Assembly: GCA_038209515.1 (NCBI GenBank)
Contig: JBBQXQ010000006.1
Coordinates: 1 to 60,054 of the forward strand
DNA: 60,054 nt
Reading direction: 5' to 3'
Origin: Gemmatimonadales bacterium
Lineage (GTDB): Bacteria > Gemmatimonadota > Gemmatimonadetes > Gemmatimonadales > GWC2-71-9
Part shown: piece by piece, positions 4,810 to 16,990 of the stretch
Numbering within the stretch: the first letter of the stretch is position 1
Layout: each line of letters opens with the position of its first letter
Program-made: the position numbers and the translations under genes
The notes under the pieces: generated by a model
The model's database searches: none
What the model was told of the DNA's origin: nothing
The model's input: the letters and a program-made list of their open reading frames with translations, nothing else

Positions 4810-5366
4810 GCACCATCGACTCTGCCGCCGCCCGGCGCGTCCGGCTGCTCGGCCTCGACGTGGACGGCGTGCTGACCGACAATGGAGTCTTCATCGGGCC
4901 GGTGGGGGGAGCGCGTGTCGAGCTCAAGCGCTTCGACATTCAGGACGGGCTAGGAATGATTCTTCTCCGGACCGCGGGCCTTCCGGTCGTCTGGCTCAGC
5001 GGTCGAAGCTCCGAAGCGACTGCACTGCGGGCGGCCGAGCTCCGGGTGGCGGAGCTTCTTCAGGTGCCCGGGCCCCGCAAGCTGGCGGCGTTCGATGAGC
5101 TGCTGACGCGGCGCGGGATCGGTTGGGAGGAAGTGGCCTTCATGGGCGACGATCTCGCCGACCTGCCAGTCCTGCGGCGCGTGGGGTTGCCGATCGCCGT
5201 TGCCAATGCGGTAGCCGACGTAAAGGCAGTCGCGGCGTACGTGACCCGGGCGTCGGGTGGGCACGGCGCGGTCCGCGAGGTAATCGAGCTTCTTCTCAGG
5301 GCGCGGGGCGAGTGGGCGGACATTCTCGAGCGCTACTTTGCCGAGCAGGCTGCGGGGGTAGTGTGA
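4806..5366 (+). CDS. kdsC: KDO-8-phosphate phosphatase (HAD family)
   Basis: LDVDGVLTD, FDIQDGLG, FMGDDLAD, GGHGAVRE; start reset to ATG 4806 (ATGA overlap with kdsA stop). Confidence 0.93.
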   Translation: MSTIDSAAARRVRLLGLDVDGVLTDNGVFIGPVGGARVELKRFDIQDGLGMILLRTAGLPVVWLSGRSSEATALRAAELRVAELLQVPGPRKLAAFDELLTRRGIGWEEVAFMGDDLADLPVLRRVGLPIAVANAVADVKAVAAYVTRASGGHGAVREVIELLLRARGEWADILERYFAEQAAGVV

Positions 5367-5905
5367 GGCGATTCGTCTTGTCCGCCCTCTCCGCCCTCTC
5401 CGTTCTTGCATGCGAGGACACCGGGGTACGCCCCACCACGACAGTTCAGGCGTCCGACAGTGCGGATCAGGTGCTGGAAGGGTTCTCCCACTATGTCACT
5501 CATAACGGGATTCTGCGCAGCCGGGTGGAAGCGGACACCGCGTTCTTCTTTGACCCGACCCAAATGAACGAGCTGCACGGCCTGAAGGTTGTGTTCTTCG
5601 ATGTCAAAGGGGCGGAGAGCTCAACCCTGACGGCAAAGCGGGGCACCTACCGCTGGCAGGATGGATCGATGCAGGCCTCGGGCAACGTGGTCGTGGTATC
5701 ACCCGATGGCCGCCGGCTCGCCACGGACGTGCTCAAGTACGACAACGCGACGAACACCATCCTGACCGACCGACACTTTACCTTCGACCGGGGCGAGGAG
5801 CACCTCGAGGGCAATAGCTTCCGCTCCGATCCGGACTTCAAGAATGTCGTGACCGATCGTCCGCGGGGCGTGACAGGCAACGGCATGTTGCTGCCGGGAC
5901 AATGA
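5363..5905 (+). CDS. lptC: LPS export periplasmic protein LptC, probable lipoprotein
   Basis: GTGA overlap with kdsC stop; signal MRRFVLSALSALSVLA-C; beta-jellyroll pattern (LTAKRGTY, ASGNVVVVS, LATDVLKY); position between kdsC and lptA/lptB. Confidence 0.85.
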   Translation: MRRFVLSALSALSVLACEDTGVRPTTTVQASDSADQVLEGFSHYVTHNGILRSRVEADTAFFFDPTQMNELHGLKVVFFDVKGAESSTLTAKRGTYRWQDGSMQASGNVVVVSPDGRRLATDVLKYDNATNTILTDRHFTFDRGEEHLEGNSFRSDPDFKNVVTDRPRGVTGNGMLLPGQ

Positions 5906-7242
5906 GAGGGCAGGGCAGCGGGGCGGCCCTCGCGATTTTTGCCTGGTTCCTCCCGAGCCCGCTAGCCGCCCAGAGCGACCGCTGTGTCTTTCAGATCAAC
6001 AACGTCGATCGGCAGGGCAGCGTGGTCGAGACGCCCCAGGGCACCAACTATTTTGCCGGAGGCAATGTCCGCCTGAGCTGCCGGGGCTCGCAGATCACCA
6101 TGCAGAGCGACAGCGTGGCCGCGTACGGCGGGAACCTGGTCCGATTCATCGGCAATGTGAAATACCGCGACTCGACCCTCACCATGGATGCCGACTACGG
6201 CACCTACTACAAGGCCGGCGAAAAGTGGGAGGCACGGGGGGGCGTCAACACCCGGAACCTTAAGACCGGATCGACCCTCACTGGCCCGGCGCTGGACTAC
6301 TTCCGGGTCGTGAAGGGCGTGCGTGACACGCTGGAGATGTACGCGACGGGCCGGCCCCGCATTCAATACGCCAGCGCCGACTCGAGCGCCCGGGTGACGG
6401 AGCCCTACGTCATCGTCGCCGATCGGGTCCGCTTCAAGGGCAGCGACCGGCTGTGGGCGGGTGGGAAGGTCACGATCGATCGGAGCGACTTCGCCGCCCG
6501 GGGTGACTCCCTCCGGCTCGACACGGGGAAGGGAAGCGACGGCACTCTGACTGGGGGCAATCCGGTGATGCGTGGGCTGGGCCGGGACAGCTTCAGCGTT
6601 GCAGGCCGCAGGCTCGACCTCAAGCTCGACCGTCGGGAAGTAACCTACGTGACGGCCAAGGGCGGGGGACACGCCATCAGCAAGGAGTGGGATTTGGTGG
6701 CCGATACGATCGGCCTCGACCTCAACAATCGGAAACTGGAGCAAACGCTGGCATGGGGCGATTCAACCCGCCCCTATGCCAACTCCCCGTCGTACGCCAT
6801 GCGAGCCGATTCTCTGGCGCTGGACACGCCGGCGCAGCAGCTCAAGGAGGTACGCGGATTCGGAACCGCCTGGCTCGGTGGGACGATCGACGCGGCCAGC
6901 AAGCAGCGCGACTGGATGCGAGGCGATACCGTGGTCGCCCAGTTCGTGCAACGAGATTCCGCCGGCACCCGCCGCTCGGCCTTGAGCCGCATCGTGGCCC
7001 GGAAAGGCGCGCAGTCGTATCACATCGACCCGAGCACGAAGTATCCGGACCGGCCATCGATCAACTATGCCCGGGGCGACGTGATTGTCATGACGATGAA
7101 AACGGGCGTGCGCACCGGAGTGGACCGGGTCGACATCCGAGGACAAGTCGACGGAATCCAGCTCGAGGCGTCGGACGCGAAGGCGGTGGATTCGACCAAG
7201 GCTCCCCCCGACTCGCTCTCGCGGCCACGAGGTACCCGGTGA
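5902..7242 (+). CDS. Long OstA/LptA-like beta-jellyroll periplasmic protein (446 aa)
   Basis: Signal peptide ending LAA-Q; repeated GNVxL/GNVKY/GKVTI and (A/S/G)DS turns typical of OstA folds; occupies the lptA slot between lptC and lptB. Confidence 0.75.
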   Translation: MRGQGSGAALAIFAWFLPSPLAAQSDRCVFQINNVDRQGSVVETPQGTNYFAGGNVRLSCRGSQITMQSDSVAAYGGNLVRFIGNVKYRDSTLTMDADYGTYYKAGEKWEARGGVNTRNLKTGSTLTGPALDYFRVVKGVRDTLEMYATGRPRIQYASADSSARVTEPYVIVADRVRFKGSDRLWAGGKVTIDRSDFAARGDSLRLDTGKGSDGTLTGGNPVMRGLGRDSFSVAGRRLDLKLDRREVTYVTAKGGGHAISKEWDLVADTIGLDLNNRKLEQTLAWGDSTRPYANSPSYAMRADSLALDTPAQQLKEVRGFGTAWLGGTIDAASKQRDWMRGDTVVAQFVQRDSAGTRRSALSRIVARKGAQSYHIDPSTKYPDRPSINYARGDVIVMTMKTGVRTGVDRVDIRGQVDGIQLEASDAKAVDSTKAPPDSLSRPRGTR

Positions 7243-8402
7243 CGGCGCCTGCCGCTCCCGAATGGGTTGCCGCGCTCGGCGATCGGGACCCTTCGGTGCC
7301 CATCGCGTTGGCGGCCATCGTCCGCGCTGCCGGTCCGTCGGACAGCATCGCATTCTCGGATCTGGTGCTGGGCTACCGTGAGGCCTACCTCGCCTGCTAC
7401 CAGGGCGACGACGATCAGGAAATCTCCGGTGACGACGTGCGCGGCTACCTGACGCAGTCCGTACTCCCGCGGCTGACGACCGAGGGATGGATCCTCGACA
7501 CAGCCCCGGGTTATTGGCAGACCGTAAAGCCCAGGGTGGCCTGGTGGGGACCGGGCAAAGAGGAGCGACAGACCGTCTACGATGCCTTGCTCGGCTCGGC
7601 CCGCCGGGCGGTGCTGCGGGCCAAGTCGTTCACCCGCCGCCGCACCAAGGCCAGCCTGCTGGAAGGGCTGGAGCTCTCGAAGAGCTTCAAGGGGCGCACC
7701 GTGGTAGACCAGGTGAGCGTCCGGGTCGAGCAGGGGGAAATCGTCGGGCTCCTCGGGCCCAATGGGGCGGGAAAGACCACGACCTTCTACCTTATTACGG
7801 GCCTCATCCGCCCCGACAAGGGGCGGGTACTGCTGGACGGGCACGAGTTGACCGATGCGCCCATGTATCAGCGGGCGCGCAGCGGCATCGGCTACCTCGC
7901 GCAGGAGCCGTCCATCTTCCGAAGGATGACCGTCGAGGAGAACATTCTGGCGATCCTGGAAACCCGGCCCCTCGGCCGGGAGGAACGGCACCGCCAACTG
8001 GATCGCATGCTGGACGAGCTGTCGATCAAGCACCTGCGGAAGAACAAGGCCTACTCGCTGAGCGGAGGCGAGCGCCGGCGTCTGGAGATCACTCGCGCGC
8101 TCGTATCGGACCCGAAGTTCATGCTGCTGGATGAGCCGTTCGCCGGCGTCGACCCGATCGCCGTGCACGATATCCAGACCATAGTCGCCGGCCTGCGGCA
8201 CCGGGGCATCGGCGTGCTGATTACTGACCATAACGTGGAGCAAACCCTCGACATCGTGGATCGGGCTTACATCATGTTCGAAGGCAAAGTGCAGGCCGCC
8301 GGCACAGTGCGCGATCTGGTGTACGACGACCGGGTCGCCCAGCTCTATCTCGGACCCACGTTGACCGCGCGACTTCGCGCCCGGCTCGAGGCAGTGGCAT
8401 GA
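7239..8402 (+). CDS. lptB: LPS export ABC transporter ATPase with an extra N-terminal domain of about 140 aa
   Basis: GPNGAGKTT, YLAQEPSIFR, LSGGERRRLE, LLDEPFAGVDP, ITDHNV; upstream of rpoN; GTG 7239 overlaps the previous stop (GTGA). Confidence 0.92.
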   Translation: MTAPAAPEWVAALGDRDPSVPIALAAIVRAAGPSDSIAFSDLVLGYREAYLACYQGDDDQEISGDDVRGYLTQSVLPRLTTEGWILDTAPGYWQTVKPRVAWWGPGKEERQTVYDALLGSARRAVLRAKSFTRRRTKASLLEGLELSKSFKGRTVVDQVSVRVEQGEIVGLLGPNGAGKTTTFYLITGLIRPDKGRVLLDGHELTDAPMYQRARSGIGYLAQEPSIFRRMTVEENILAILETRPLGREERHRQLDRMLDELSIKHLRKNKAYSLSGGERRRLEITRALVSDPKFMLLDEPFAGVDPIAVHDIQTIVAGLRHRGIGVLITDHNVEQTLDIVDRAYIMFEGKVQAAGTVRDLVYDDRVAQLYLGPTLTARLRARLEAVA

Positions 8403-9919
8403 GGACTGGTCTCTCCCAGCATACCAGCCTCCGGCAGGAGCTTCGGGTCAATCCGCGGCTGTACCAGGCCATGGACATGCTTTACATGCCCATGATGGAC
8501 CTGCAGCAGCACCTCAAGCAGGAGCTGCTGGCCAACCCGTTCCTCGAGCTGCTCGAGCCGGAAGAAGAGACGGCAGAGCCGCTCACGGCCGAGCAGGAGA
8601 AGCAGCAGGAGAAGCAGAAGGAGAAGCAGGACGAGGTCGACTGGGAGGAGATCCTGCTCAACGGCTTCGAGGTGGGAGGCACCCGGGAGCAGTACGAGCA
8701 ACTCGAGTACAACGAGCCGGTCACCGTCGAGACCCGGAATCTGATCGATCACCTCCGGGAGCAGCTCCAGATGCTGACCCTCACTCCCCGGCAGCTGCTG
8801 CTCGCCGAAGAGTTTCTGGGCAATATCAACGAGGAGGGCTACCTCGCCGCCTCGCTCGAGGAGATCCTCGGCTCGGTGAATCAGCTCATGGCGGGGCATG
8901 TTCAAGGGGACGGAGAAGAGGGAGAAGACGGAGAGGTTGACGACTTCGACGCCTCGGCACCTACTGTCACGGGGACCTCTCCGTCCTCTCCGCCCTTTTA
9001 CACCATACAAGACGGCGAGGAGATGCTCACCGTCATCCAGCGTCTGGATCCCTCCGGCATCGGTGCGCGGGACCTCCGGGAATGCTTGCTCATCCAGCTG
9101 GTCGAGCTGGCCGATACGGCCTCGCTCACCTACCGGTTGGTGTCGGAGGCCTTCCCCGATCTCATCGCCCATCGCTGGAACGACCTGGCCAAGCGCTTCG
9201 GGGTCGAGCCGGTGGCGGTGCAGGCCGCGGCCGACCAGCTCTCCCGGCTCGATCCCAAGCCCGGTCTCCGCTATTCCGAGCAGACCGACGGCTACATCAT
9301 CCCTGACCTGATCGTGGAAAAGATCGGCGTGCGTTACCACGTCTTTCTGAACGACACCGGGATGCCTCGGCTACGCCTGAGCCGCTCGTATCAGGAGATT
9401 GCGCGGGACAAGAAGAAGATGACGCCGGAGAACCGCGAGTTCATTGCCTCCAAGATGAACAGCGCGAACTGGATGATTCAGGCGATCGAGCAGCGGCGGC
9501 AGACCATGCTGAAGGTGATGAACTTCATCGTCGACCGGCAGCGTGACTTCTTCGAGAAGGGCATCGAGTACCTCAAGCCACTCACCCTTCGCGAAGTGGC
9601 CGAAGTGATCAACATGCACGAGTCCACCGTCAGCCGGGTGACCAACGAGAAATACGTCCAGACCCCGCGCGGGGTGCTCCCGCTCAAGTTCTTCTTCTCC
9701 AGCGCGCTCTCGACTTCATCCGGCGAGGACGCAAGCGCCCGCTCCATCCGGGCCAAGCTGGAGAAGATGGTCGGCGAGGAGAACAGCGCGAAGCCGCTCA
9801 CCGACCAGCAGATCGTCCACCTCTTCCAGGAGCAAGGGATCCAGATCGCCCGCCGCACGGTCGCCAAGTACCGCGATCAGCTCGGCATCCTTCCGGCCCG
9901 AATGCGGAAACGGGTATGA
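8399..9919 (+). CDS. rpoN: RNA polymerase sigma-54 factor
   Basis: Gln/Leu-rich region I, NPFLE, GIGARDLRECL, HESTVSRVT, RpoN box ARRTVAKYR. Confidence 0.98.
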   Translation: MRTGLSQHTSLRQELRVNPRLYQAMDMLYMPMMDLQQHLKQELLANPFLELLEPEEETAEPLTAEQEKQQEKQKEKQDEVDWEEILLNGFEVGGTREQYEQLEYNEPVTVETRNLIDHLREQLQMLTLTPRQLLLAEEFLGNINEEGYLAASLEEILGSVNQLMAGHVQGDGEEGEDGEVDDFDASAPTVTGTSPSSPPFYTIQDGEEMLTVIQRLDPSGIGARDLRECLLIQLVELADTASLTYRLVSEAFPDLIAHRWNDLAKRFGVEPVAVQAAADQLSRLDPKPGLRYSEQTDGYIIPDLIVEKIGVRYHVFLNDTGMPRLRLSRSYQEIARDKKKMTPENREFIASKMNSANWMIQAIEQRRQTMLKVMNFIVDRQRDFFEKGIEYLKPLTLREVAEVINMHESTVSRVTNEKYVQTPRGVLPLKFFFSSALSTSSGEDASARSIRAKLEKMVGEENSAKPLTDQQIVHLFQEQGIQIARRTVAKYRDQLGILPARMRKRV

Positions 9920-10872
9920 CCGTGGCTCCGGTCGAGACGCTGGATGTGAGCGTACTCGTCCCGGCCAAGGACGAGGCGGAAAATCTCCCGGAGTTCCTCC
10001 AGCGTTGCGCGCAGGCGCTCGGCCCTGCCGGATTTTCCTTCGAAGTGATCGTCGTCAATGATGGCTCGCGGGACGGCACCGATCGGGTGCTCCGGGAGCT
10101 GGGGCGGCAGTATCCCTTCCTGGCGGTCGTCACCCACCGCCGCCAGCGCGGGATCGCCGATTCGCTGCGGTCTGCGGGCGACGTAGCTCGTGGGGATGTC
10201 TTCGTCTTTTACCCTGCCGACCTCCAGTACCTGCCGGAGGATATTCCCGGCCTGGTCGCCCCTATCCTGCAGGGTCGGGCCGACATCGTCACCGGCACCA
10301 AACAGGGCAAGTATGAGAAGGCCTTCGTCTCGAGTGTCTACAACGGCCTGTCACGCTGGTTGTTCGGCGTGCGGGTGACGGACCTGAATTCGGTCAAGGC
10401 CTACCGCCGTGAGGTCATGCTCGGCGTCCCGCTGCGTCCCGACTGGCATCGCTACATGGTGGTGATCGCGGCCGCGGACGGGTATCGCCTTACCTCCCTA
10501 CCCGTTCCTCTCTATCCCCGCCGGGCCGGTACCTCGAAGTTCAACTGGAAACGCATACCGATCGGACTGTTTGACCTGATCTCGGTCTGGTTCCAGCTTC
10601 GGTTCGGTCGCAAGCCAATGCTTTTCTTCGGCGTCGGTGGCGCCATTCTCTTCGTCATCGGTTTCCTCGCCGGCATTGCCGCTCTGGTGCTGCGTTTTGG
10701 CTATGGCATCGGCCTCCGCCCATTGTTGAATCTGGTCGAGATGATGGTGATCAGCGGAATTGTCCTGTTCGGATTCGGCTTTCTGGGCGAGATCATCGCC
10801 GGGATGCGGGAGGAGACCCGCGAGATCGCCCGAGATCTGGCCCGGCTCGAGAAGCCCGACGTCAGGGATTGA
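9916..10872 (+). CDS. GT2 glycosyltransferase with two C-terminal TM helices (ArnC/GtrB-like polyprenyl-phosphate glycosyltransferase)
   Basis: VLVPAKDEAENL, VVNDGSRDGT, ADLQY, RRAGTSK, C-terminal hydrophobic pair ending GFLGEII. Confidence 0.88.
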   Translation: MTVAPVETLDVSVLVPAKDEAENLPEFLQRCAQALGPAGFSFEVIVVNDGSRDGTDRVLRELGRQYPFLAVVTHRRQRGIADSLRSAGDVARGDVFVFYPADLQYLPEDIPGLVAPILQGRADIVTGTKQGKYEKAFVSSVYNGLSRWLFGVRVTDLNSVKAYRREVMLGVPLRPDWHRYMVVIAAADGYRLTSLPVPLYPRRAGTSKFNWKRIPIGLFDLISVWFQLRFGRKPMLFFGVGGAILFVIGFLAGIAALVLRFGYGIGLRPLLNLVEMMVISGIVLFGFGFLGEIIAGMREETREIARDLARLEKPDVRD

Positions 10873-10875
10873 TCG

Positions 10876-12018
10876 GTGAGGGTCGTCTTCCTGACCCATA
10901 ACTATCCCCGTTGGCCAGGTGATCTTTCGGGATCCTTTCTCGGGACGCTGGCGTCCGCCCTGGTCCGCCGGGGTGTCGACGTACGCGTCGTGGCGCCGAG
11001 TGACTCGGGGCAGGGGGGCGCGACAGTCGTGGACGGCGTGCCGGTTCGCCGGGTTCGCTACGCGTCAGCCGACTCCGAGATCCTCGCCTATCGCGGCACC
11101 ATGCTGGCCGCCTTGCGCCGGCCTGGCGGGTGGGCGGCCCTGGTGGGCCTCTGGCGGGCGCTCCGCCGTGCGGCTCGCGAGGAACTCGAGGCCGGTGCCG
11201 ATCTGATTCACGCTCACTGGTGGGTGCCTGCCGGGCTCGCCCTTCCACCGGGCGCACCGAGCGTGCTCACGGTACACGGCACCGACGCAGCGCTGCTCCG
11301 GCGCTCGCGCATCGCCCGGCGATTGGCCCGCCCCGTCTTCCGCCGCGCGCAGGTGGTTACTGCTGTTTCCCGCGAGCTCGCCGTGTGGGTGCAGAACGGG
11401 ACCGGACGCCACGTTGCCCCCTCCCACATCCAGCCGATGCCGATCAAGAGCAGCAACTTCCCCTGGAGCCGGGGCGGTGGAGGGGCCGTGGTGATCGCCC
11501 GGCTTACTCCCCAGAAGCGCGTACGCCTCGCCATCGATGCGGTGGCTACCCTCGTCTCCTGCGGCCATGACCTCCCGCTCACTATTGTGGGGGACGGCCC
11601 CGAGCGGTCCGTCCTCGAACAGCACGTTGCCAAACTCGGTCTCTCCGAGTTCGTGCGCTTTGCCGGAAACGTCGACAGTGCAGCGGTCCCCGACTATCTC
11701 GCTCGTGCCGATATCATGATCTTTCCCTCTCGCGAAGAAGGATTCGGATTGGCCGCGGCGGAGGCTCTGATGGCCGGGGTACCGGTCGTCGCGTGCTGGG
11801 ACGGTGGGGGCGTCCTCGACATCGTGCCGGAAACGGGCGCAGGGCGACTGACGCTTCCTTCGGCGCCCGCCATGAGCGACGCAATCCTGAGCATCCTGCA
11901 GGATCCGGATCGGCGTGAAATGGCCCGTCTGGTCGGCGAGTCCTGGCGGGCCCGGCTCGCGCCGGATCACGTAGCAGAAGTCTGTCACGGCTGGTACCGC
12001 GAGGCCTTGAGTGCGTAG
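10876..12018 (+). CDS. GT4 (GT-B fold) glycosyltransferase
   Basis: IHAHWW, TVHGTD, ARLTPQK, IVGDGPER, PSREEGFGLAAAEAL (EX7E). Confidence 0.9.
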   Translation: MRVVFLTHNYPRWPGDLSGSFLGTLASALVRRGVDVRVVAPSDSGQGGATVVDGVPVRRVRYASADSEILAYRGTMLAALRRPGGWAALVGLWRALRRAAREELEAGADLIHAHWWVPAGLALPPGAPSVLTVHGTDAALLRRSRIARRLARPVFRRAQVVTAVSRELAVWVQNGTGRHVAPSHIQPMPIKSSNFPWSRGGGGAVVIARLTPQKRVRLAIDAVATLVSCGHDLPLTIVGDGPERSVLEQHVAKLGLSEFVRFAGNVDSAAVPDYLARADIMIFPSREEGFGLAAAEALMAGVPVVACWDGGGVLDIVPETGAGRLTLPSAPAMSDAILSILQDPDRREMARLVGESWRARLAPDHVAEVCHGWYREALSA

Positions 12019-12937
12019 CGGCTGGCTCCGAGCGGCCCAGGCGGTGGTGGGTCTCGCGATCGTCGTGTTCGCGATTCGGACCCTCGTTCGAAACTGGGAT
12101 CAGCTGCGCTCACAACCGCTCGAGTGGCAGCTCCGGCCCGGATGGCTCGTGCTCAGCCTCGTGCTCACCTGGCTGATGTACGCGCTGCTGATTCTCGGCT
12201 GGCGCAGCATGCTGAGCGGCTGGGGCCAGCGGCTGGACGGATGGAGCGCTGCCCGGATTTGGATTCTGTCCAGTCTCGGCAAATACATCCCGGGAAAGGT
12301 GTGGGCCGTCGCGGGGATGGCCTTGTTGGCGCAACGGGCTGGCGTCGCACCGTGGGCAGCCACCGGCTCGGCCGTGGTGATGCAGGTGCTCGCAATCGGG
12401 ACGGGAGCGGCAGTCGCGGGACTGGCTGGGGCTCGCAACCTCGAGTCGGCTCAGCGAGGCGCCGGCGCCGGTCTCGTGCTGCTGGTCGCCGGCGCCATCA
12501 TTTCTGTGGGGCTGCTGCTTTGGCCACCTTTCCTGCGTCGTCTGCTGCGACTGGCGGCACCCCAAGCCGCGGGCGAGCGCCAGCCTACGGGTAGAGGCAT
12601 CGTGGTTGGGATCGCTACGAATATTGTTGCGTGGCTGGGCTATGGCCTCGCCTTGTGGCTCCTCGGTCGCGGGCTGCTGCCCAGCTCGGGTCTGGGCCTC
12701 CGCTTGGCAATCGCAGTATTTACGGCCTCGTACCTGGCTGGATTTCTCGCCCTGTTTGCGCCAGGCGGTATCGGCGTACGGGAAGGGCTTTTCATCCTCA
12801 TGCTGCAGAAACCGCTCGGTGTTGGCGCGGCCACCTCGCTGGCAGTAGCCTCGCGACTGTTGCTGACGGTGGCCGAGCTTGGTGCGGCCGTTCCATTTCT
12901 CGTCTTTCGCCGGAGGCAGGTGCGTGTCCCATCCTGA
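12011..12937 (+). CDS. Lysylphosphatidylglycerol-synthase TM-domain / flippase-like membrane protein
   Basis: Multiple TM helices; LGKYIPGKVW and APGGIGVREG motifs of the LPG_synthase_TM (AglD2/YbhN-like) family. Confidence 0.8.
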   Translation: MRSGWLRAAQAVVGLAIVVFAIRTLVRNWDQLRSQPLEWQLRPGWLVLSLVLTWLMYALLILGWRSMLSGWGQRLDGWSAARIWILSSLGKYIPGKVWAVAGMALLAQRAGVAPWAATGSAVVMQVLAIGTGAAVAGLAGARNLESAQRGAGAGLVLLVAGAIISVGLLLWPPFLRRLLRLAAPQAAGERQPTGRGIVVGIATNIVAWLGYGLALWLLGRGLLPSSGLGLRLAIAVFTASYLAGFLALFAPGGIGVREGLFILMLQKPLGVGAATSLAVASRLLLTVAELGAAVPFLVFRRRQVRVPS

Positions 12938-15299
12938 GTCTCCATCCGCCTTAGACCAGATGCCCCGGTGGTGGCCATTCGTCGTCATGGGCGCCCTGAC
13001 GCTGCTCGTGTTCCGCAACTATCTCGTGAGCGGACCGGGTTCGATGCTTCTGGGGCAGGATACCATCGCGGCCGGCATCATGTTTCGCTCCTTCTTTGTC
13101 GAGCACTTCAAGGCCCTTGGCCGGCTGCCACTGTGGAATCCTTATCTCTTCGGCGGTGTGCCCACGATCGAAGCCGGGAGCGGCGATATCCTATACCCCA
13201 CCTCGGCCCTGCACCTGCTCTTGCCCATGCCGAGCGCGCTTGCCTGGAAGCTCATCCTTCACGTCTACCTTGCCGGCGTGTTCATGTATCTGGCGGCCCG
13301 GGCCTTCGGGGTGAGCCGGTGGGTGGCCCTGTTTGCCGGCTTAGCGTACCTCCTGTCCGCCAACCTCGTAAGCCTTGTCTGGGGCGGACAGGACGGCAAG
13401 ATGTACGTCACCGCCCTGTTTCCGGCAGCGTTGTGGCTTCTGGTGACCGCACTCGACCGGCGATCATGGCTCCGGTTCCTCTGGCTCGGCGCGGTGGCCG
13501 GCCTCATGGTCGTGGCCCACCCGCAGCTCGCCTACTACGCCTATGTCGCCCTCTTGGCGTATGCGCTCGGCAGCTTATTCACCCGCCGTCGCAAAGGGGG
13601 AGCACTCCTCGCCACTGGGCTCGCAGGCGGCATGCTCGCCGGGCTCACCGCGATCGGGGTGGCAGCCATTACGCTGTTTCCCATGTACCGGTACTTGCGG
13701 GAAGATTCACCCCGGGCCGGGCCCGGCCGTGGATTTGAGTACTCCGCCAGCTGGTCGCTCCATGCCGAGGAGGCGCTTTCGCTGTTCATTCCTGACTTCA
13801 GCGGCACCGACGCGCAGTCGGAGACGTACTGGGGTAAGAACCCCTTCAAGCACAACTCTGAATACGGTGGGGCGTTGGTGTTTGTGCTGGGCATCGCAGC
13901 CCTGGCGGGTCTCAAAGGCGATCGTCGGCGCTGGGGGCTGGGGGCGTTGGCCGCGATCGCGCTCCTGTACGCGCTCGGCGCTGGCACCCCGGTATTCCGG
14001 CTGTTGTACTCGTTCGTGCCGGGTCTCAAGAATTTTCGGGCTCCGAGTCTCGCGACCTTCGTAGCCATCGCGGCTCTCACCCTTTTGGCCGCGCTGCTGT
14101 TGGACCGCGTGCTGTCCGGAGCAGATTTGCGCGCCCGCCGTGCGCTGTCGACTGCTCTCGTAGCTGGCGGCGTCGCGGCCCTCTTGATCGCCGTCCTGGC
14201 ATTGGGAGGGGGACCGGGGCTGTATGCCAGCTGGACTTCTGTCTTCGGCGCCGCCGAGGGAGGCCAGCGAGCGCAAGCCTTCGCAGCCAACCTCTCGCGG
14301 ATCGTAGGGGGTGCCCTCAGCGTTGCGATCATCTGCGCGCTGGCCTGGGGTGCGGTACTCCTGTGGAATCGGGGTAAGCTTCGAGCACTGCATGTTGTGA
14401 TGATCCTGACGAGCTTGACGGCCATCGACCTGCTTCGAGTGGATAACCGCTACATTCAGGTCGTTCGGTACGACGATTTCTTCCCACCGGATCAGGGTAT
14501 CGAGGCATTACGCGCGCGGCTGGTTCCCGGCGAGCGGGTGCTCACTGTCGGCGGAGTGTATCCCGAGGGGTTTCTGGCGACGTATGGGGTTCCCGAAGTG
14601 TTCGGCTACCATGGTAATCAGCTTCGGTGGTACAACGCGCTCACTCGCTACGACGTGCGCCAGGGGGCCCGCACCGCGGCTGACCAGGAGCAATACTGGC
14701 TTAGCTTTCTCAACAGTGCGGCGCTCCGGGCACTTGCCGCGAGGTACGTCCTCTTGCCGGGCCAGGTGGAGCTCCCCGGTCTCAAACTCCTGGGCGCCGA
14801 TCAACGGGTTGCGGTCTACCTTAACGAAAGCGCCATGCCCGGCGCGGCGGTGGTGCCAGAGGTGCAGGTCGAACCGGACTCCGCCCGCCAGATTGCGCTC
14901 CTCTGGTCGCCCACCTTCGATCCGGCAAAAACCACTCTGCTGGAAGAGGCTGTGCCGTCGATCGGGCATGGGGGAGGGACCGGGACTGCGGTTATTGAAG
15001 GGAACGGGGATGACACCCTGGCCGTGCGAGCTCGCACCACCGGACCCGCACTGCTGACCATAAGTCGTACGTATCATGGCTCGTGGCAGGCGGAGATCGA
15101 CGGCGCTCCCGTGCCCGTCCTCCGGGCTAACTTTGCCTTGATGGCGGTGCCGTTGACCAGCAGCGGCGAGCACCGGGTCGTGCTGCGCTACCGACCCAGG
15201 ATCGTTCAGTCCACCGCGATTGTTACCGCCGCCACCTGGACCATCCTGCTCCTGGTGACTGCCGTGACGGCGCTCTTGAGCCTTCGCCGACGTGGCTGA
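12924..15299 (+). CDS. YfhO-family GT-C polytopic membrane glycosyltransferase
   Basis: First-loop D and PLWNPYLFGGVP motif, HPQLAYY, FRAPS; more than 10 TM helices; C-terminal YHGSWQAEIDG..VLRANFALMAV..GEHRVVLRY YfhO signature; start GTG 12924 or ATG 12960. Confidence 0.82.
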   Translation: MSHPESPSALDQMPRWWPFVVMGALTLLVFRNYLVSGPGSMLLGQDTIAAGIMFRSFFVEHFKALGRLPLWNPYLFGGVPTIEAGSGDILYPTSALHLLLPMPSALAWKLILHVYLAGVFMYLAARAFGVSRWVALFAGLAYLLSANLVSLVWGGQDGKMYVTALFPAALWLLVTALDRRSWLRFLWLGAVAGLMVVAHPQLAYYAYVALLAYALGSLFTRRRKGGALLATGLAGGMLAGLTAIGVAAITLFPMYRYLREDSPRAGPGRGFEYSASWSLHAEEALSLFIPDFSGTDAQSETYWGKNPFKHNSEYGGALVFVLGIAALAGLKGDRRRWGLGALAAIALLYALGAGTPVFRLLYSFVPGLKNFRAPSLATFVAIAALTLLAALLLDRVLSGADLRARRALSTALVAGGVAALLIAVLALGGGPGLYASWTSVFGAAEGGQRAQAFAANLSRIVGGALSVAIICALAWGAVLLWNRGKLRALHVVMILTSLTAIDLLRVDNRYIQVVRYDDFFPPDQGIEALRARLVPGERVLTVGGVYPEGFLATYGVPEVFGYHGNQLRWYNALTRYDVRQGARTAADQEQYWLSFLNSAALRALAARYVLLPGQVELPGLKLLGADQRVAVYLNESAMPGAAVVPEVQVEPDSARQIALLWSPTFDPAKTTLLEEAVPSIGHGGGTGTAVIEGNGDDTLAVRARTTGPALLTISRTYHGSWQAEIDGAPVPVLRANFALMAVPLTSSGEHRVVLRYRPRIVQSTAIVTAATWTILLLVTAVTALLSLRRRG

Positions 15300-16014
15300 T
15301 CGTCTCCTCGTGGTCGTGCCGACATACAACGAGCGGGTCAATCTGCCGCTGGTGGTGCCTGCTATTCTCCAGCAGGACCCCCGGATCGATGTCCTGGTCG
15401 TAGACGACAACTCGCCTGACGGGACCGGCCAACTGGCCGATGAGCTGGCCGCCTCCACGCCACGGGTGCACGTCCTGCACCGGCCCACCAAGTCGGGCCT
15501 GGGGAAGGCCTACCTGGCCGGCTTCCAGTGGGCGCTGGCGAACCGGTATGATCTGATCTTCGAGATGGACGCGGACTTCTCCCACGACCCGAAGTTCCTG
15601 GGCGACTTCGTCCGCGCTGCGGTCAACGCCGATCTGGTGATTGGGTCGCGCTACCGGGCCGGGGTGGTGAACGTCATCAACTGGCCGATCTCCCGGCTCC
15701 TGCTTTCCATCGGTGCCAACCAATACGCCCGCTGGATCACCGGTCTTCCGCTGGCTGATTCGACCGGCGGCTTCAAGTGTTTTCGGCGTGAGGTGCTCGA
15801 GGCCATCGATTTCGAGAAGGTACGGTCCAATGGTTACGCCTTTCAGATCGAAATGAGCTTTCGGGCCTGGAAGAAGGGGTTCCGGTTGGTGGAGGTTCCC
15901 ATCGTATTCACCGATCGGGTCGAGGGACAGAGCAAAATGAACAAGCGCATCGTTCGGGAGGCGATCTGGATGGTCTGGTGGCTCCGGCTTCAGTCCCTGA
16001 TTGGGCGCCTGTGA
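15292..16014 (+). CDS. Polyprenol-phosphate mannose synthase (DPM1/Ppm1-like GT2)
   Basis: VVPTYNER, VVDDNSPDGTG, GLGKAY, EMDADFSHDP, IGSRY, DSTGGFK, GYAFQIEM, FTDRVEGQSKM. Confidence 0.88.
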   Translation: MADRLLVVVPTYNERVNLPLVVPAILQQDPRIDVLVVDDNSPDGTGQLADELAASTPRVHVLHRPTKSGLGKAYLAGFQWALANRYDLIFEMDADFSHDPKFLGDFVRAAVNADLVIGSRYRAGVVNVINWPISRLLLSIGANQYARWITGLPLADSTGGFKCFRREVLEAIDFEKVRSNGYAFQIEMSFRAWKKGFRLVEVPIVFTDRVEGQSKMNKRIVREAIWMVWWLRLQSLIGRL

Positions 16015-16829
16015 GGGGGACCCTCGTCTACAAGATGAGCGGCTCGGGCAACGACTTCGTCGTGCTCGACGGACGCTTTACCGACGCCAGCCGCTGGCCA
16101 GCAGCCCAGATAAGTGCGATCTGCGACCGCGGGAGCGGAGTCGGCGCCGACGGGTTCGTCATTCTCACACCAGCAACGGCGGACTCCGTCCGTATGGCTT
16201 ACTGGAATGCGGACGGGTCGGACGGAGCGCTCTGCGGCAACGCGGCGCTCTGCTGTGGAAGGCTGGCCGTGGTACTGGAGTTCGTGCCACCCGGGGAGTT
16301 CTGTCTGCTGACCGACGCTGGGGTGGTGCGGGTCAGAGCTGGGGCTACCGGGGATGTAGCGGAGATCAATCTTCCCGATGTGGATCTGCCGCGCGAACAC
16401 GGCGGGATCGCGGCGGTGGCCGGCGAGCGCTGGCTCTCGATGGGTAGCGTGGGGGTACCCCATCTCGTGATCCGAGTGGACGACATCGAAGCGGTCGATG
16501 TGGCCGGCCGCGGCCGGTTGCTTCGATCCCATGCGAGTGTCGGGCCCGAGGGCGCCAACGTCAATTTCGTGGCTCCCGCCCGAGGCTCCTGGTTGATTCG
16601 AACCTACGAGCGCGGCGTCGAGAGCGAGACGCTGGCCTGCGGAACCGGAACTGTGGCAGCCGCTCTGGCTTTGGCATCTCGTGGAGAGGCCCAGCTTCCT
16701 CTGAGCTTCCGGAGCAGGGGAGGGCCGGAGCTCAGGGTTCGGGCCGAGCTGGGGGGCCCGCAGGCGACAGGCGTCTGGTTGGGGGGCCAAGGCCGGCTGG
16801 TCTTCCGTGGAGTGTGGGAAGGCATCTAG
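16011..16829 (+). CDS. dapF: Diaminopimelate epimerase
   Basis: KMSGSGNDF, GVGADG, NADGS..LCGN, GVPH, GANVNF, RTYERGVE.ETLACGTG; GTGA overlap. Confidence 0.95.
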   Translation: MRGTLVYKMSGSGNDFVVLDGRFTDASRWPAAQISAICDRGSGVGADGFVILTPATADSVRMAYWNADGSDGALCGNAALCCGRLAVVLEFVPPGEFCLLTDAGVVRVRAGATGDVAEINLPDVDLPREHGGIAAVAGERWLSMGSVGVPHLVIRVDDIEAVDVAGRGRLLRSHASVGPEGANVNFVAPARGSWLIRTYERGVESETLACGTGTVAAALALASRGEAQLPLSFRSRGGPELRVRAELGGPQATGVWLGGQGRLVFRGVWEGI

Positions 16830-16915
16830 GGTCCGCCTTAAGTCTCTGCAACTCAATCACTTACATCGAGCCAACACCGCACACTCCACAGTTCTCCACA
16901 GTTTTCCCCAAGGAT

Positions 16916-16956: not shown

Positions 16957-16990
16957 TAAACAAAGGGGGCCTCGCGCTCTAAGGCCCCTC
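16957..16990 (-). terminator. Rho-independent terminator after the TPR gene
   Basis: Minus strand GGGGCCT-loop-AGGCCCC followed by CTTTGTTT. Confidence 0.6.

What the first reader, a model, noticed from the sequence alone, without database searches (positions are those of the whole stretch)
9916..16014. Candidate general protein O-glycosylation (O-mannosylation) machinery co-transcribed with lpt-rpoN
Seen: directly after rpoN, where hpf/ptsN often sit, lie five tightly coupled genes. They encode a TM-anchored GT2, a GT4, a flippase-like LPG_synthase_TM protein, a YfhO/GT-C protein of about 790 aa and a DPM1-like polyprenol-phosphate mannose synthase. No wzx/wzy, waaL or nucleotide-sugar genes are present. 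Known: DPM1/Ppm1 plus a flippase plus a GT-C enzyme is the architecture of extracytoplasmic glycosylation from lipid-phosphate-sugar donors, and characterised Bacteroidota D-(S/T) O-glycans are often mannose-linked. Inference: with the sequon excess in exported proteins (next finding), this housekeeping-linked cassette may be the lineage's protein O-glycosylation system, with the YfhO protein as the transferase. The alternative is lipid A/LPS decoration.
Basis: partly seen in the sequence, partly recalled or inferred. Interest (0 to 1): 0.8.

Follow-up and report, generated by a model that had tools for sequence, protein, structure and literature searches.

The report
Periplasmic sugar-transfer operon behind rpoN
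A soil Gemmatimonadales bacterium carries, fused to its LPS-transport/rpoN operon, a five-gene kit for attaching sugars outside the cytoplasm, and its exported proteins are packed with the sugar-attachment motif known from Bacteroidota, but whether this kit is the enzyme set that uses that motif remains open.

Summary
Five overlapping or abutting genes follow rpoN at 9916-16014:
- an ArnC/GtrB-like GT2 with C-terminal TM helices
- a GT4
- an MprF-flippase-like protein
- a 778-791 aa YfhO-family GT-C
- a soluble DPM1-like GT2

The organism is Gemmatimonadales, not Bacteroidota.

The GT-C was found in 199 of 201 sampled Gemmatimonadota genomes; both misses are contig ends. It was also found in 150 of 151 Zixibacteria-like genomes.

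My crude test confirms a sharp excess of D-S-(A/I/L/V/M/T) in exported proteins (O/E 2.5; cytoplasmic 1.0; E. coli control 0.8-0.9). This was also seen in one further genome each of families f1 and f2 and in a Zixibacteria-like genome.

A July 2026 preprint independently predicts, in silico only, that Bacteroidota YfhO is the missing O-glycosylation transferase.

Evidence against a one-to-one link:
- Two family-f7 genomes keep the cassette genes but show little or no excess.
- The GT-C slot holds proteins only 31-38% identical within one genus.
- The genome also encodes a TMEM260-like O-mannosyltransferase homologue.
- GT4 plus a UPF0104 flippase is a known glycolipid arrangement.

Verdict: a real lipid-carrier periplasmic glycosylation module. 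Its role in protein O-glycosylation is plausible but unproven (about 0.45).

The parts
5123..5905 (+). lptC-like gene; apparent first gene of the operon
   Evidence: Pfam LptC E 3.2e-9. The same position is kept in relatives.
5902..7242 (+). 446-aa exported protein in the lptA position, with 11 D-[ST]-[AILVMT] sites
   Evidence: No Pfam or NCBIfam hit. Translation; sequon count. It sits between lptC and lptB as lptA does in E. coli. 'LptA-like' is inferred from position only.
6687..8402 (+). ORF holding the lptB-like ABC ATPase; the true start lies downstream of 7242
   Evidence: Pfam ABC_tran E 3.9e-39 at residues 341-486 of the stop-to-stop ORF.
8399..9919 (+). rpoN (sigma-54)
   Evidence: Sigma54_AID, Sigma54_CBD and Sigma54_DBD, E 5.5e-12 to 2.4e-63.
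9916..10872 (+). GT2a: membrane-anchored polyprenol-phosphate glycosyltransferase-like GT2 (ArnC/GtrB/AglJ type)
   Evidence: Pfam. Full-length PDB sequence matches to ArnC (9hwj, 2.5e-23) and GtrB (5ekp, 1.2e-19). C-terminal hydrophobic segments at 240-296. NCBIfam best hits ArnC and AglJ are far below equivalog cut-offs.
10876..12018 (+). GT4 cytoplasmic glycosyltransferase
   Evidence: Pfam. NCBIfam has no hit near a cut-off. It varies between short and long forms of the cassette in relatives.
12011..12937 (+). MprF-flippase-like (LPG_synthase_TM / UPF0104) membrane protein
   Evidence: Pfam E 4e-13. AF2 model pLDDT 83. The top 6 Foldseek hits are all the MprF membrane domain (TMq 0.62-0.67); the next hits have TM <= 0.21.
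12924..15299 (+). YfhO-family GT-C glycosyltransferase (start GTG 12924 or ATG 12963)
   Evidence: Pfam. 21 of 23 aligned relatives hit PF09586. AF2 pLDDT 86.7, pTM 0.88. GT-C fold: STT3 Z 22.8, AftD 22.3, PglB 18.3, ArnT 17.4, Pmt 17.3. Invariant D33 and the YWGKNPFK loop.
15292..16014 (+). GT2b: soluble DPM1-like polyprenol-phosphate hexose (mannose?) synthase
   Evidence: Pfam. PDB 5mlz Dol-P-Man synthase E 7.2e-29. No TM segment. 57-67% identical in other phyla.
15978..16829 (+). dapF; last gene of the co-directional run
   Evidence: TIGR00652 DapF 166 bits, above the 114.65 cut-off. It follows GT2b in Gemmatimonadota relatives.
16966..16988 (-). Strongest terminator-like hairpin of the region, on the opposite strand just past dapF; marks the end of the co-directional block
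   Evidence: 8-pair stem with 6 GC pairs. Terminator-like sites in the region number 13, against 8.6 +/- 3.3 in shuffles.

Best explanation
The five genes form a lipid-carrier-dependent periplasmic glycosylation module, transcribed with lptC-lptA-lptB-rpoN and dapF.

Proposed steps:
- GT2a loads a sugar onto polyprenol phosphate at the cytoplasmic face, as ArnC, GtrB and AglJ do.
- GT4 probably extends that sugar.
- The MprF-flippase-like protein moves the lipid-linked sugar or sugars across the membrane.
- The YfhO-family GT-C transfers them to an acceptor in the periplasm.
- GT2b makes a second donor, polyprenol-phosphate hexose (probably mannose).

I think the most likely acceptor class is exported protein. 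On this reading the module is part of a Bacteroidota-type general O-glycosylation pathway, with the GT-C acting either directly on the Ser/Thr of D-S/T-x or on a first mannose placed by the separately encoded TMEM260-like enzyme.

Shown: gene content, folds, conservation and the sequon excess. Inferred: every enzymatic step, the sugars and the acceptor.
For: Parts and folds.

Tight coupling: 4- and 8-nt overlaps, and no + strand terminator signal above shuffles.

Conservation:
- The GT-C is in 199 of 201 Gemmatimonadota genomes at E <= 1e-10. Both misses are contigs that end at the GT-C slot.
- It is in 150 of 151 genomes of the phylum of G201, which includes a Zixibacteriota-labelled genome.
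- GT2a, LPG_synthase_TM, GT-C and GT2b are contiguous in loci of other phyla, for example L042, L043 and L050.
- rpoN linkage is kept in families f1, f2, f6 and f7.

Sequon excess in the own genome:
- D[ST][AILVMT] in 350 predicted exported proteins is 741 against 387 expected (O/E 1.92, z 20.5). DS[AILVMT] is 2.51. In 1130 cytoplasmic proteins the ratio is 1.04.
- At position -1 only D is enriched (2.54; the other 19 residues 0.75-1.13).
- At +1 after DS: M 3.42, L 3.08, V 2.77, T 2.30, A 2.19, I 1.95, S 1.48; the rest are <= 1.15.
- The E. coli control is 0.90.

The excess also appears in G125 (DS 2.0, z 4.9), G103 (DS 2.10, z 8.1) and the Zixibacteria-like G201 (1.97, z 12.8).

Distribution and literature:
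- PF09586 hits only B. thetaiotaomicron among the diderm controls.
- In Bacteroidota, the core-glycan machinery, its flippase and the transferase are undiscovered and described as resembling O-mannosylation (review PMC12871550).
- A preprint predicts in silico that YfhO is that transferase.
- YfhO-family PgfM proteins belong to a protein O-glycosylation system in S. mutans (abstract of PMC12041528; NCBIfam names).
Against: - No result here identifies the acceptor.
- Family-f7 genomes show little or no excess. G161 has an rpoN-linked cassette (L085). In G061, GT2a, the GT-C and the flippase-like gene are together, but rpoN and GT2b were not seen within the 19.5 kb fetched (L077). G161: D[ST][AILVMT] 1.19-1.24, DS 1.05-1.09. 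G061: 0.96 with 45 exported proteins.
- Within the window's genus, 9 of 16 genomes have a GT-C only 33-38% identical. In the 3 of those 9 examined, it sits in the same slot at 31-33% identity, between flanks 63-84% identical. The two types fall in deep, separate clades. This is unusual for a general transferase with one sequon.
- The preprint reports YfhO absent from P. gingivalis, which has a characterised D(S/T)x O-glycoproteome.
- The genome has other candidates: TMEM260-like (PF11028, E 3e-43), three PMT_2 proteins and two Wzy_C proteins.
- Characterised Bacillus and Listeria YfhO enzymes decorate teichoic acids, not proteins (listing and abstracts).
- My gene caller and signal-peptide rule are crude and have visible false positives.
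Confidence: 0.45

Rival explanations
1. The chemistry is the same but the acceptor is an envelope lipid or lipoglycan. GT4 glycosylates a membrane lipid in the cytoplasm. The UPF0104 protein flips that glycolipid, as proposed for GpgF and HexF. The YfhO-family GT-C then decorates or extends it, or LPS, in the periplasm with sugars from the two GT2 products, as YfhO does for lipoteichoic acid. The sequon is served by the separate TMEM260-like enzyme, which may draw on GT2b's polyprenol-phosphate mannose.
For: - GT4 and the flippase-like gene overlap by 8 nt. They co-vary: against L074 they are 76% and 73% identical, against L002 62% and about 55% partial. This tracks the short or long cassette form, not the GT-C type.
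- WOR-3-labelled loci keep GT4, LPG_synthase_TM and the GT-C without a detected GT2.
- P. aeruginosa gpgSDF pairs a GT4 with a COG0392/UPF0104 predicted flippase for GlcN-phosphatidylglycerol; C. difficile hexSDF is analogous (passages of PMC12713373).
- The cassette is co-transcribed with LPS transport genes.
- Characterised YfhO acts on lipoteichoic acid.
- TMEM260-like is present in the own genome and in 5 of 5 other genomes tested, and among the 14 controls only in B. thetaiotaomicron.
- f7 genomes with cassette genes lack the sequon excess.
Against: - No deacetylase is in the window's cassette.
- GT4 scores 40.5 bits against a 480-bit cut-off for the GlcNAc-PG synthase model.
- In Zixibacteria-like loci the flippase-like gene sits between GT2a and the GT-C with no GT4 (L042), tying it to the GT2/GT-C pair.
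- No lipid A modification enzyme reaches an equivalog cut-off.
Confidence: 0.35
2. This is a GtrABC-like, strain-variable decoration of a surface polysaccharide such as O-antigen, capsule or an S-layer glycan. Conserved GT2 and flippase functions feed a variable, acceptor-specific GT-C.
For: - The GT-C alone is replaced between same-genus genomes while GT2a and GT2b stay 80-83% identical. This mirrors conserved GtrA/GtrB with a variable GtrC; that comparison is recalled knowledge.
- The middle of the cassette varies. Most relatives carry an extra roughly 4 kb with a second GT4, a FemAB/GNAT-like acyltransferase, a hexapeptide acyltransferase and a 490-aa protein with no Pfam hit.
- The genome has two Wzy_C ligase/polymerase-type genes.
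Against: - Near-universal, mostly single-copy presence across two phyla, and fixed placement in a housekeeping operon, are unlike accessory, often phage-borne gtr clusters.
- There is no GtrA-family gene in the cassette.
Confidence: 0.15

Closest known systems
Multi-component transmembrane glycosylation systems (CsbB/GtcA/YfhO of Bacillus and Listeria; GtrB/GtrA/GtrC; ArnC/ArnEF/ArnT)
   Same: A GT2 that charges polyprenol phosphate, a small flippase and a GT-C that transfers outside the cytoplasm. GT2a matches ArnC and GtrB over their full length. The GT-C is in Pfam YfhO.
   Different: - The flippase candidate is MprF/UPF0104-type, not GtrA or SMR.
- There are two GT2s plus a GT4.
- The cassette is fused to lptCAB-rpoN in a diderm.
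- The acceptor is unknown.
General protein O-glycosylation of Bacteroidota (sequon D-S/T-A/I/L/V/M/T; review PMC12871550; YfhO prediction in bioRxiv 10.64898/2026.07.27.740950)
   Same: The same sequon, with the same preferences at -1 and +1, is enriched in exported proteins. The same Pfam family (PF09586) is proposed as the transferase.
   Different: - The phylum differs: Gemmatimonadota, and a Zixibacteria-like genome.
- Here the GT-C sits with two GT2s and a flippase-like gene behind rpoN, not beside sahH/luxS.
- I could not compare it directly with a Bacteroidales YfhO because I had no Bacteroidota genome handle.
- No glycan data exist for this lineage.
Haloferax volcanii N-glycosylation (AglJ, further GTs, AglB; AglD/AglS final mannose); recalled knowledge
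   Same: A GT2 starts a glycan on a polyprenol monophosphate, and soluble GTs extend it. It is flipped and transferred by a GT-C. A separate DPM1-like GT2 supplies Dol-P-Man. AglJ is GT2a's second-best NCBIfam hit.
   Different: All scores are far below equivalog cut-offs (74 bits against 325). Haloferax is an archaeon, N-linked, with an STT3-type transferase.
gpgSDF (P. aeruginosa) and hexSDF (C. difficile) glycolipid operons (PMC12713373)
   Same: A GT4 next to a UPF0104/COG0392 predicted flippase.
   Different: No deacetylase here. A GT-C and two GT2s are present here. The GT4 is not an equivalog.
Eukaryotic and actinobacterial O-mannosylation (DPM1/Ppm1 plus PMT; human TMEM260, PMC10214176)
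   Same: GT2b is a DPM1-like synthase. The GT-C fold matches Pmt1/2/4 at Z about 17. The genome has a TMEM260-like gene.
   Different: The cassette's GT-C is not in the PMT family: PMT_2 scores below cut-off. The TMEM260-like gene lies elsewhere, after purH.

Membership tests
YfhO family (Pfam PF09586) GT-C | Match to the family model above its gathering score | tested here: met
   42.7 bits against a 28.5 cut-off, but only model positions 775-835. 21 of 23 aligned relatives match, best E 3.7e-22.
YfhO family (Pfam PF09586) GT-C | GT-C fold with a conserved acidic residue in the first extracytoplasmic loop | tested here: met
   AF2 pLDDT 86.7. VIA Z 22.8 to STT3, 22.3 to AftD, 17.4 to ArnT. 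D33 is invariant in 23 sequences. Its catalytic role is inferred.
Three-component glycosylation (CsbB/GtcA/YfhO; GtrABC) | Adjacent GtrB/CsbB-type GT2 with C-terminal TM helices | tested here: met
   GT2a matches 5ekp GtrB at 1.2e-19 over residues 8-302. Hydrophobic segments at 240-296.
Three-component glycosylation (CsbB/GtcA/YfhO; GtrABC) | GtrA/GtcA-family flippase | tested here: not met
   No GtrA-family hit among the cassette proteins. An LPG_synthase_TM protein occupies the place. The rest of the genome was not searched for GtrA.
Bacteroidota-type general protein O-glycosylation | Compartment-specific enrichment of D-S/T-(A/I/L/V/M/T) | tested here: met
   O/E 1.92-1.94 in exported against 1.04-1.05 in cytoplasmic proteins. 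Only D is enriched at -1. The E. coli control is 0.90.
Bacteroidota-type general protein O-glycosylation | Glycan actually attached to the sequon Ser/Thr | not testable with these tools
   Needs glycoproteomics.
Bacteroidota-type general protein O-glycosylation | Homology of the GT-C to the Bacteroidales YfhO proposed as the transferase | not tested
   No Bacteroidota genome handle could be reached. Both proteins meet the PF09586 threshold (preprint methods passage).
PMT-type protein O-mannosylation | PMT/PMT_2 family membership of the GT-C | tested here: not met
   PMT_2 scores 23.9 bits, below the 26.1 cut-off. Fold likeness to Pmt1/2/4 is Z about 17, no better than to ArnT or OST.
PMT-type protein O-mannosylation | DPM1/Ppm1-type polyprenol-phosphate mannose synthase | tested here: inconclusive
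   GT2b matches 5mlz Dol-P-Man synthase at 7.2e-29. NCBIfam hits (AglJ, PpgS) are all far below cut-offs. Sugar specificity is not shown.
ArnC/ArnT lipid A aminoarabinose pathway | Equivalog-level match to ArnC | tested here: not met
   NF007986 scores 81 bits against a 529 cut-off. No Arn sugar-synthesis genes are in the cassette.
gpgSDF / hexSDF glycolipid operons | GT4 synthase, deacetylase and UPF0104 flippase | tested here: not met
   GT4 and the UPF0104-type gene are adjacent, but no deacetylase is present. NF053787 scores 40.5 bits against a 480 cut-off.
MprF flippase domain (LPG_synthase_TM) | Family match and fold of the MprF membrane domain | tested here: met
   Pfam 50 bits against a 33.4 cut-off. 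Foldseek ranks 1-6 are all MprF, TMq 0.62-0.67. Flipping activity and substrate were not tested.

The most novel reading that the evidence does not exclude
This operon, together with the unlinked TMEM260-like gene, is the long-sought core machinery of the D-S/T-x protein O-glycosylation system, and that system is older and wider than Bacteroidota (Gemmatimonadota, Zixibacteria, Fibrobacterota). On this reading:
- GT2b makes polyprenol-phosphate mannose.
- The MprF-like UPF0104 protein is the flippase for polyprenol-phosphate-linked sugars, a role with no identified protein in most systems.
- TMEM260-like places mannose on the sequon.
- The YfhO-family GT-C ligates the strain-variable glycan built by GT2a and the GT4(s) onto that mannose.

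This would explain why the GT-C and the GT4/flippase block are swapped between close relatives while the sequon stays the same.
Probability: 0.2. Interest if true: 0.85.

Novelty: new variant of a known kind. Interest (0 to 1): 0.62.

Why it matters
A 2025 review of Bacteroidota O-glycosylation states that the core-glycan enzymes, their flippase and the transferase are still undiscovered. A 2026 preprint offers only an in-silico guess, YfhO.

This window adds three things:
- a compact operon that physically links a YfhO-family GT-C to a lipid-sugar synthase pair and a flippase candidate
- evidence that the sequon excess extends to Gemmatimonadota and a Zixibacteria-like genome; two library searches found no paper that treats this for Gemmatimonadota
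- natural contrasts that make the question testable: f7 genomes with cassette genes but no sequon excess, a swapped GT-C within one genus, and a rival TMEM260-like gene

If the MprF-like protein flips polyprenol-phosphate sugars, it would fill a gap that is also open in other systems.

Tried and rejected
- Natural knock-outs. The two Gemmatimonadota genomes without a GT-C match (G155, G157) are not losses. Their lptC-to-GT4/flippase contigs end at the GT-C slot.
- Reaching Bacteroidota genomes to test orthology and synteny with the Bacteroidales yfhO. 'of' needs a genome handle. The MAGs labelled 'Ignavibacteriales' fall in the same held phylum as a Zixibacteriota genome and lack SusD. This remains untested.
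- ESM Atlas. It returned only YfhO clusters, commonest in Gemmatimonadota or Chloroflexota. No new lead.
- Presence or absence of TMEM260-like as a discriminator. It is present in sequon-rich and sequon-poor genomes alike.
- Loss of conserved GT-C residues in f7. All 26 columns conserved at 95% or more are essentially kept, with one T-to-S and one G-to-D change in single sequences.
- Fold ranking to infer the acceptor. OST, AftD, PglB, ArnT and PMT all score Z 17-23, so it does not discriminate.
- Literature on 'LPG_synthase_TM' (one irrelevant paper) and on Gemmatimonas glycosylation (nothing relevant).
- RNA evidence. Short contigs from four soil RNA libraries, 95-99% alike, lie on parts of the cassette. 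Some span the GT2a/GT4, GT-C/GT2b and GT2b/dapF junctions. Contigs cannot show a single transcript, and DNA carry-over is not excluded, so I draw no conclusion. Uncovered bins mean nothing.
- One run of my gene caller without the GC3 training filter misfired on G061, yielding only 8 'exported' proteins. I disregarded it.
- My 'LptB' tblastn query was cut in the wrong frame. Its identity values are meaningless and are not used. LptB rests on Pfam.
- Complex prediction was not used. An enzyme with a short acceptor peptide is outside what that test can judge.
- Earlier scan notes did not bear on this locus.

Full report
**What is in the window**

Between 5.1 and 16.8 kb, ten + strand genes run head to tail:
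- lptC (5123-5905)
- a 446-aa exported protein in the lptA position (5902-7242), with no Pfam or NCBIfam hit
- an lptB-type ABC ATPase, inside ORF 6687-8402
- rpoN (8399-9919)
- GT2a (9916-10872)
- GT4 (10876-12018)
- an LPG_synthase_TM protein (12011-12937)
- a YfhO-family GT-C (12924 or 12963 to 15299)
- GT2b (15292-16014)
- dapF (15978-16829)

Stop and start codons overlap by 4 or 8 nt or are 3 nt apart. Terminator-like sites do not exceed shuffles (13 against 8.6 +/- 3.3). The strongest hairpin lies on the opposite strand just past dapF.

The taxon is not. The nearest named relatives (74-96% identity for the GT-C) are Gemmatimonadales MAGs, and the window is 63-69% GC.

**The parts**

- GT2a aligns over its whole length, including the C-terminal membrane segments, with solved ArnC (2.5e-23) and GtrB (1.2e-19).
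- GT2b is a 240-aa soluble GT2. Its best solved relative is Pyrococcus Dol-P-Man synthase (7.2e-29).
- Every NCBIfam hit for these proteins is far below its equivalog cut-off, so the sugars are unknown.
- The flippase-like protein folds with pLDDT 83. It matches only the membrane domain of MprF (six top hits, TMq 0.62-0.67; the next hits are <= 0.21).
- The GT-C folds with pLDDT 86.7 and pTM 0.88. It has a GT-C core, a C-terminal beta-rich domain and a last TM helix.
- VIA Z-scores for the GT-C are 22.8 (STT3), 22.3 (AftD, aligned over 1-770), 18.3 (PglB), 17.4 (ArnT) and about 17 (Pmt1/2/4). The fold is certain. The acceptor cannot be read from it.
- Its Pfam YfhO hit is above threshold but covers only the C-terminal 60 model positions. 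21 of 23 aligned relatives hit YfhO.

**Conservation**

- The GT-C was found in 199 of 201 sampled Gemmatimonadota genomes. The tally includes genomes flagged unpublished: G057, G097 and G181.
- In both misses the contig carrying lptC, lptA, lptB, rpoN, GT2a, GT4 and (in one) the flippase-like gene ends exactly at the GT-C slot (one of them, G157, is unpublished). They are assembly breaks, not losses.
- rpoN linkage is kept in families f1, f2, f6 and f7. It was not seen in loci of other phyla.
- In the phylum of genome G201, which also holds a Zixibacteriota-labelled genome, 150 of 151 genomes have the gene.
- In loci such as L042, L043 and L050 the order GT2a, flippase-like, GT-C, GT2b is contiguous, with GT2b 65-67% identical to the window's.
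- WOR-3-labelled loci keep GT4, flippase-like and GT-C without a detected GT2.

**Variation**

Of the 16 genomes in the window's genus, 7 have a GT-C 75-100% identical. The other 9 have one only 33-38% identical.

I examined 3 of those 9 (G125, G165, G197). The divergent gene occupies the same slot at 31-33% identity, while the flanks are well conserved: RpoN 76-91%, GT2a 80-82%, GT4 74-76%, flippase-like 63-73% and GT2b 80-83%.

A 50-row tree was built with 21 near-duplicate type-A rows left out (IQ-TREE quick, LG+G4). It puts the two types in separate, well-supported deep clades. One groups with family f2 and WOR-3 sequences. The other, the window's, sits next to f7 and nearer the Zixibacteria sequences.

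Most type-A relatives also carry an extra roughly 4 kb between GT4 and the flippase-like gene. It holds a second GT4, a FemAB/GNAT-like acyltransferase, a hexapeptide acyltransferase and a 490-aa protein with no Pfam hit. The window, L022 and L026 have the short form.

GT4 and the flippase-like gene co-vary with the form, not with the GT-C type. Against L074 they are 76% and 73% identical. Against L002 they are 62% and about 55%, the latter a partial match.

The operon therefore has conserved ends (rpoN-GT2a and GT2b-dapF) and two independently exchanged inner blocks. I infer that the flipped species depends on what GT4 and the extra genes make.

**The sequon**

I wrote a crude gene caller and signal-peptide rule. 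It has visible false positives.

In the own genome:
- 350 predicted exported proteins hold 741 D[ST][AILVMT] sites against 387 expected from shuffles (O/E 1.92, z 20.5).
- DS[AILVMT] is 2.51 and DT[AILVMT] is 1.32.
- 1130 cytoplasmic proteins give 1.04.
- Control motifs are not enriched: E or N at -1, the reversed motif, the swapped motif, and D[AG]x all lie at 0.83-1.04.
- A relaxed caller gives the same picture (1.94 and 2.53).
- At position -1 only Asp is enriched (2.54; the other 19 residues 0.75-1.13).
- After D-S, the enriched residues are M, L, V, T, A, I and weakly S (1.48-3.42); all others are <= 1.15.

This matches the Bacteroidota sequon and its preferences as described in PMC10897501 (passages) and PMC12871550 (main text parts 1-3).

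| Genome | Sample | Result for exported proteins |
|---|---|---|
| E. coli K-12 (control) | 300 kb, 37 exported | 0.90 |
| G125 (same genus, other GT-C type) | 400 kb | DS 2.0, z 4.9 |
| G103 (family f2) | 400 kb | DS 2.10, z 8.1 |
| G201 (Zixibacteria-like) | 400 kb | 1.97, z 12.8 |
| G161 (family f7, rpoN-linked cassette) | 400 kb, 53-58 exported | 1.19-1.24; DS 1.05-1.09 |
| G061 (family f7) | 800 kb, 45 exported | 0.96 |

The cassette genes are therefore present where the excess is not.

**Literature**

- The 2025 review says the core glycan (mannose first), its flippase, the transferase and the ligase are undiscovered. It says the pathway resembles eukaryotic O-mannosylation. It notes motif enrichment in Bacteroidota and Fibrobacterota.
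- A July 2026 preprint predicts from HHpred, phylum-wide presence, Tn-seq essentiality and topology that Bacteroidota YfhO is the transferase. It notes YfhO is absent from P. gingivalis (passages).
- P. gingivalis has a characterised O-glycoproteome at this motif (abstract listing; passages).
- Streptococcal GtrB with a GT-C, and the Pgf system, glycosylate Ser/Thr-rich regions (abstract).
- P. aeruginosa gpgSDF pairs a GT4 with a UPF0104 predicted flippase to make glucosaminyl-phosphatidylglycerol and possibly translocate it (passages).
- Library searches for Gemmatimonadota or Gemmatimonadetes with O-glycosylation found 0 and 2 papers. The two hold a single mention of each term and, by title and abstract, concern T9SS and Tannerella.

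**Other candidates in the genome**

- Three PMT_2 GT-Cs and two Wzy_C proteins.
- On contig C36, after purH, a 791-aa TMEM260-like protein (PF11028, E 3e-43).
- PF11028 is present in 5 of 5 other genomes tested, sequon-rich and sequon-poor alike. Among the 14 control genomes it hits only B. thetaiotaomicron.
- Human TMEM260 is a protein O-mannosyltransferase (title and abstract).

**Weighing**

The mechanism class is well supported: lipid-carrier sugars made in the cytoplasm, flipped, and transferred by a GT-C in the periplasm.

In favour of a role in protein O-glycosylation:
- the sequon signal
- the restriction of both YfhO and the sequon to this group of phyla
- near-universal presence, mostly in single copy, in a housekeeping operon
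- the adjacent DPM1-like gene
- the independent preprint

Against the GT-C being the sequon-reading transferase:
- the f7 genomes
- the within-genus swap
- P. gingivalis
- the TMEM260-like rival
- the teichoic-acid precedent for characterised YfhO enzymes

I put 0.45 on involvement in protein O-glycosylation, either directly or as the enzyme that adds a variable glycan to a first mannose. I put 0.35 on a glycolipid, LPS or lipoglycan acceptor, and 0.15 on Gtr-like decoration of a surface polysaccharide.

Noticed in passing
G000 contig C36:11200-13572 (L254:4301-6673): A 791-aa TMEM260-like protein (PF11028, E 3.5e-43) directly after purH, with selA upstream. It is a rival candidate for the sequon O-mannosyltransferase. 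The family hits only B. thetaiotaomicron among the 14 control genomes.
   Followed up: partly
window 12924-15299 versus L074-L076 (G125, G165, G197): The GT-C in the same operon slot is only 31-33% identical in these same-genus genomes, while the flanks are 63-84% identical. The two types belong to deep, separate clades.
   Followed up: yes
L019:2908-7039 and most type-A relatives: A long form of the cassette adds a second GT4, an Acetyltransf_6/FemAB-like protein, a hexapeptide acyltransferase and a 490-aa protein with no Pfam hit, between GT4 and the flippase-like gene.
   Followed up: partly
window 5902-7242: The protein in the lptA position is 446 aa, far longer than E. coli LptA (558-bp gene). 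It has no Pfam or NCBIfam hit and carries 11 D-[ST]-[AILVMT] sites.
   Followed up: partly
G161 and G061 (family f7), loci L174-L233: These Gemmatimonadota genomes show little or no sequon excess in exported proteins (O/E 0.96-1.24) although they hold cassette genes and TMEM260-like. This is a natural contrast worth exploiting.
   Followed up: partly
L039:5320-7551 and 8001-10235: A Zixibacteriota-labelled locus has two tandem copies of the YfhO-family gene. Several other genomes have 2-4 copies.
   Followed up: no
L042, L044, L050 (genomes G201, G246, G341): MAGs labelled Ignavibacteria or Ignavibacteriales in their records fall in the same held phylum as a Zixibacteriota-labelled genome (G203) and lack SusD. 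The record labels may be wrong.
   Followed up: no
L042:3688-5877: A 729-aa protein with C-terminal TPR repeats lies just upstream of GT2a in a Zixibacteria-like locus, next to a DegT-type aminotransferase. It may be another membrane glycosyltransferase.
   Followed up: no
window 15978-16014: The longest dapF ORF starts at a GTG 37 nt inside GT2b. The true start may be further downstream.
   Followed up: no
window 8400-16900: Short contigs from four soil RNA libraries (95-99% alike) lie on parts of rpoN and the cassette, some across gene junctions. This is no proof of transcription or of a single transcript.
   Followed up: partly
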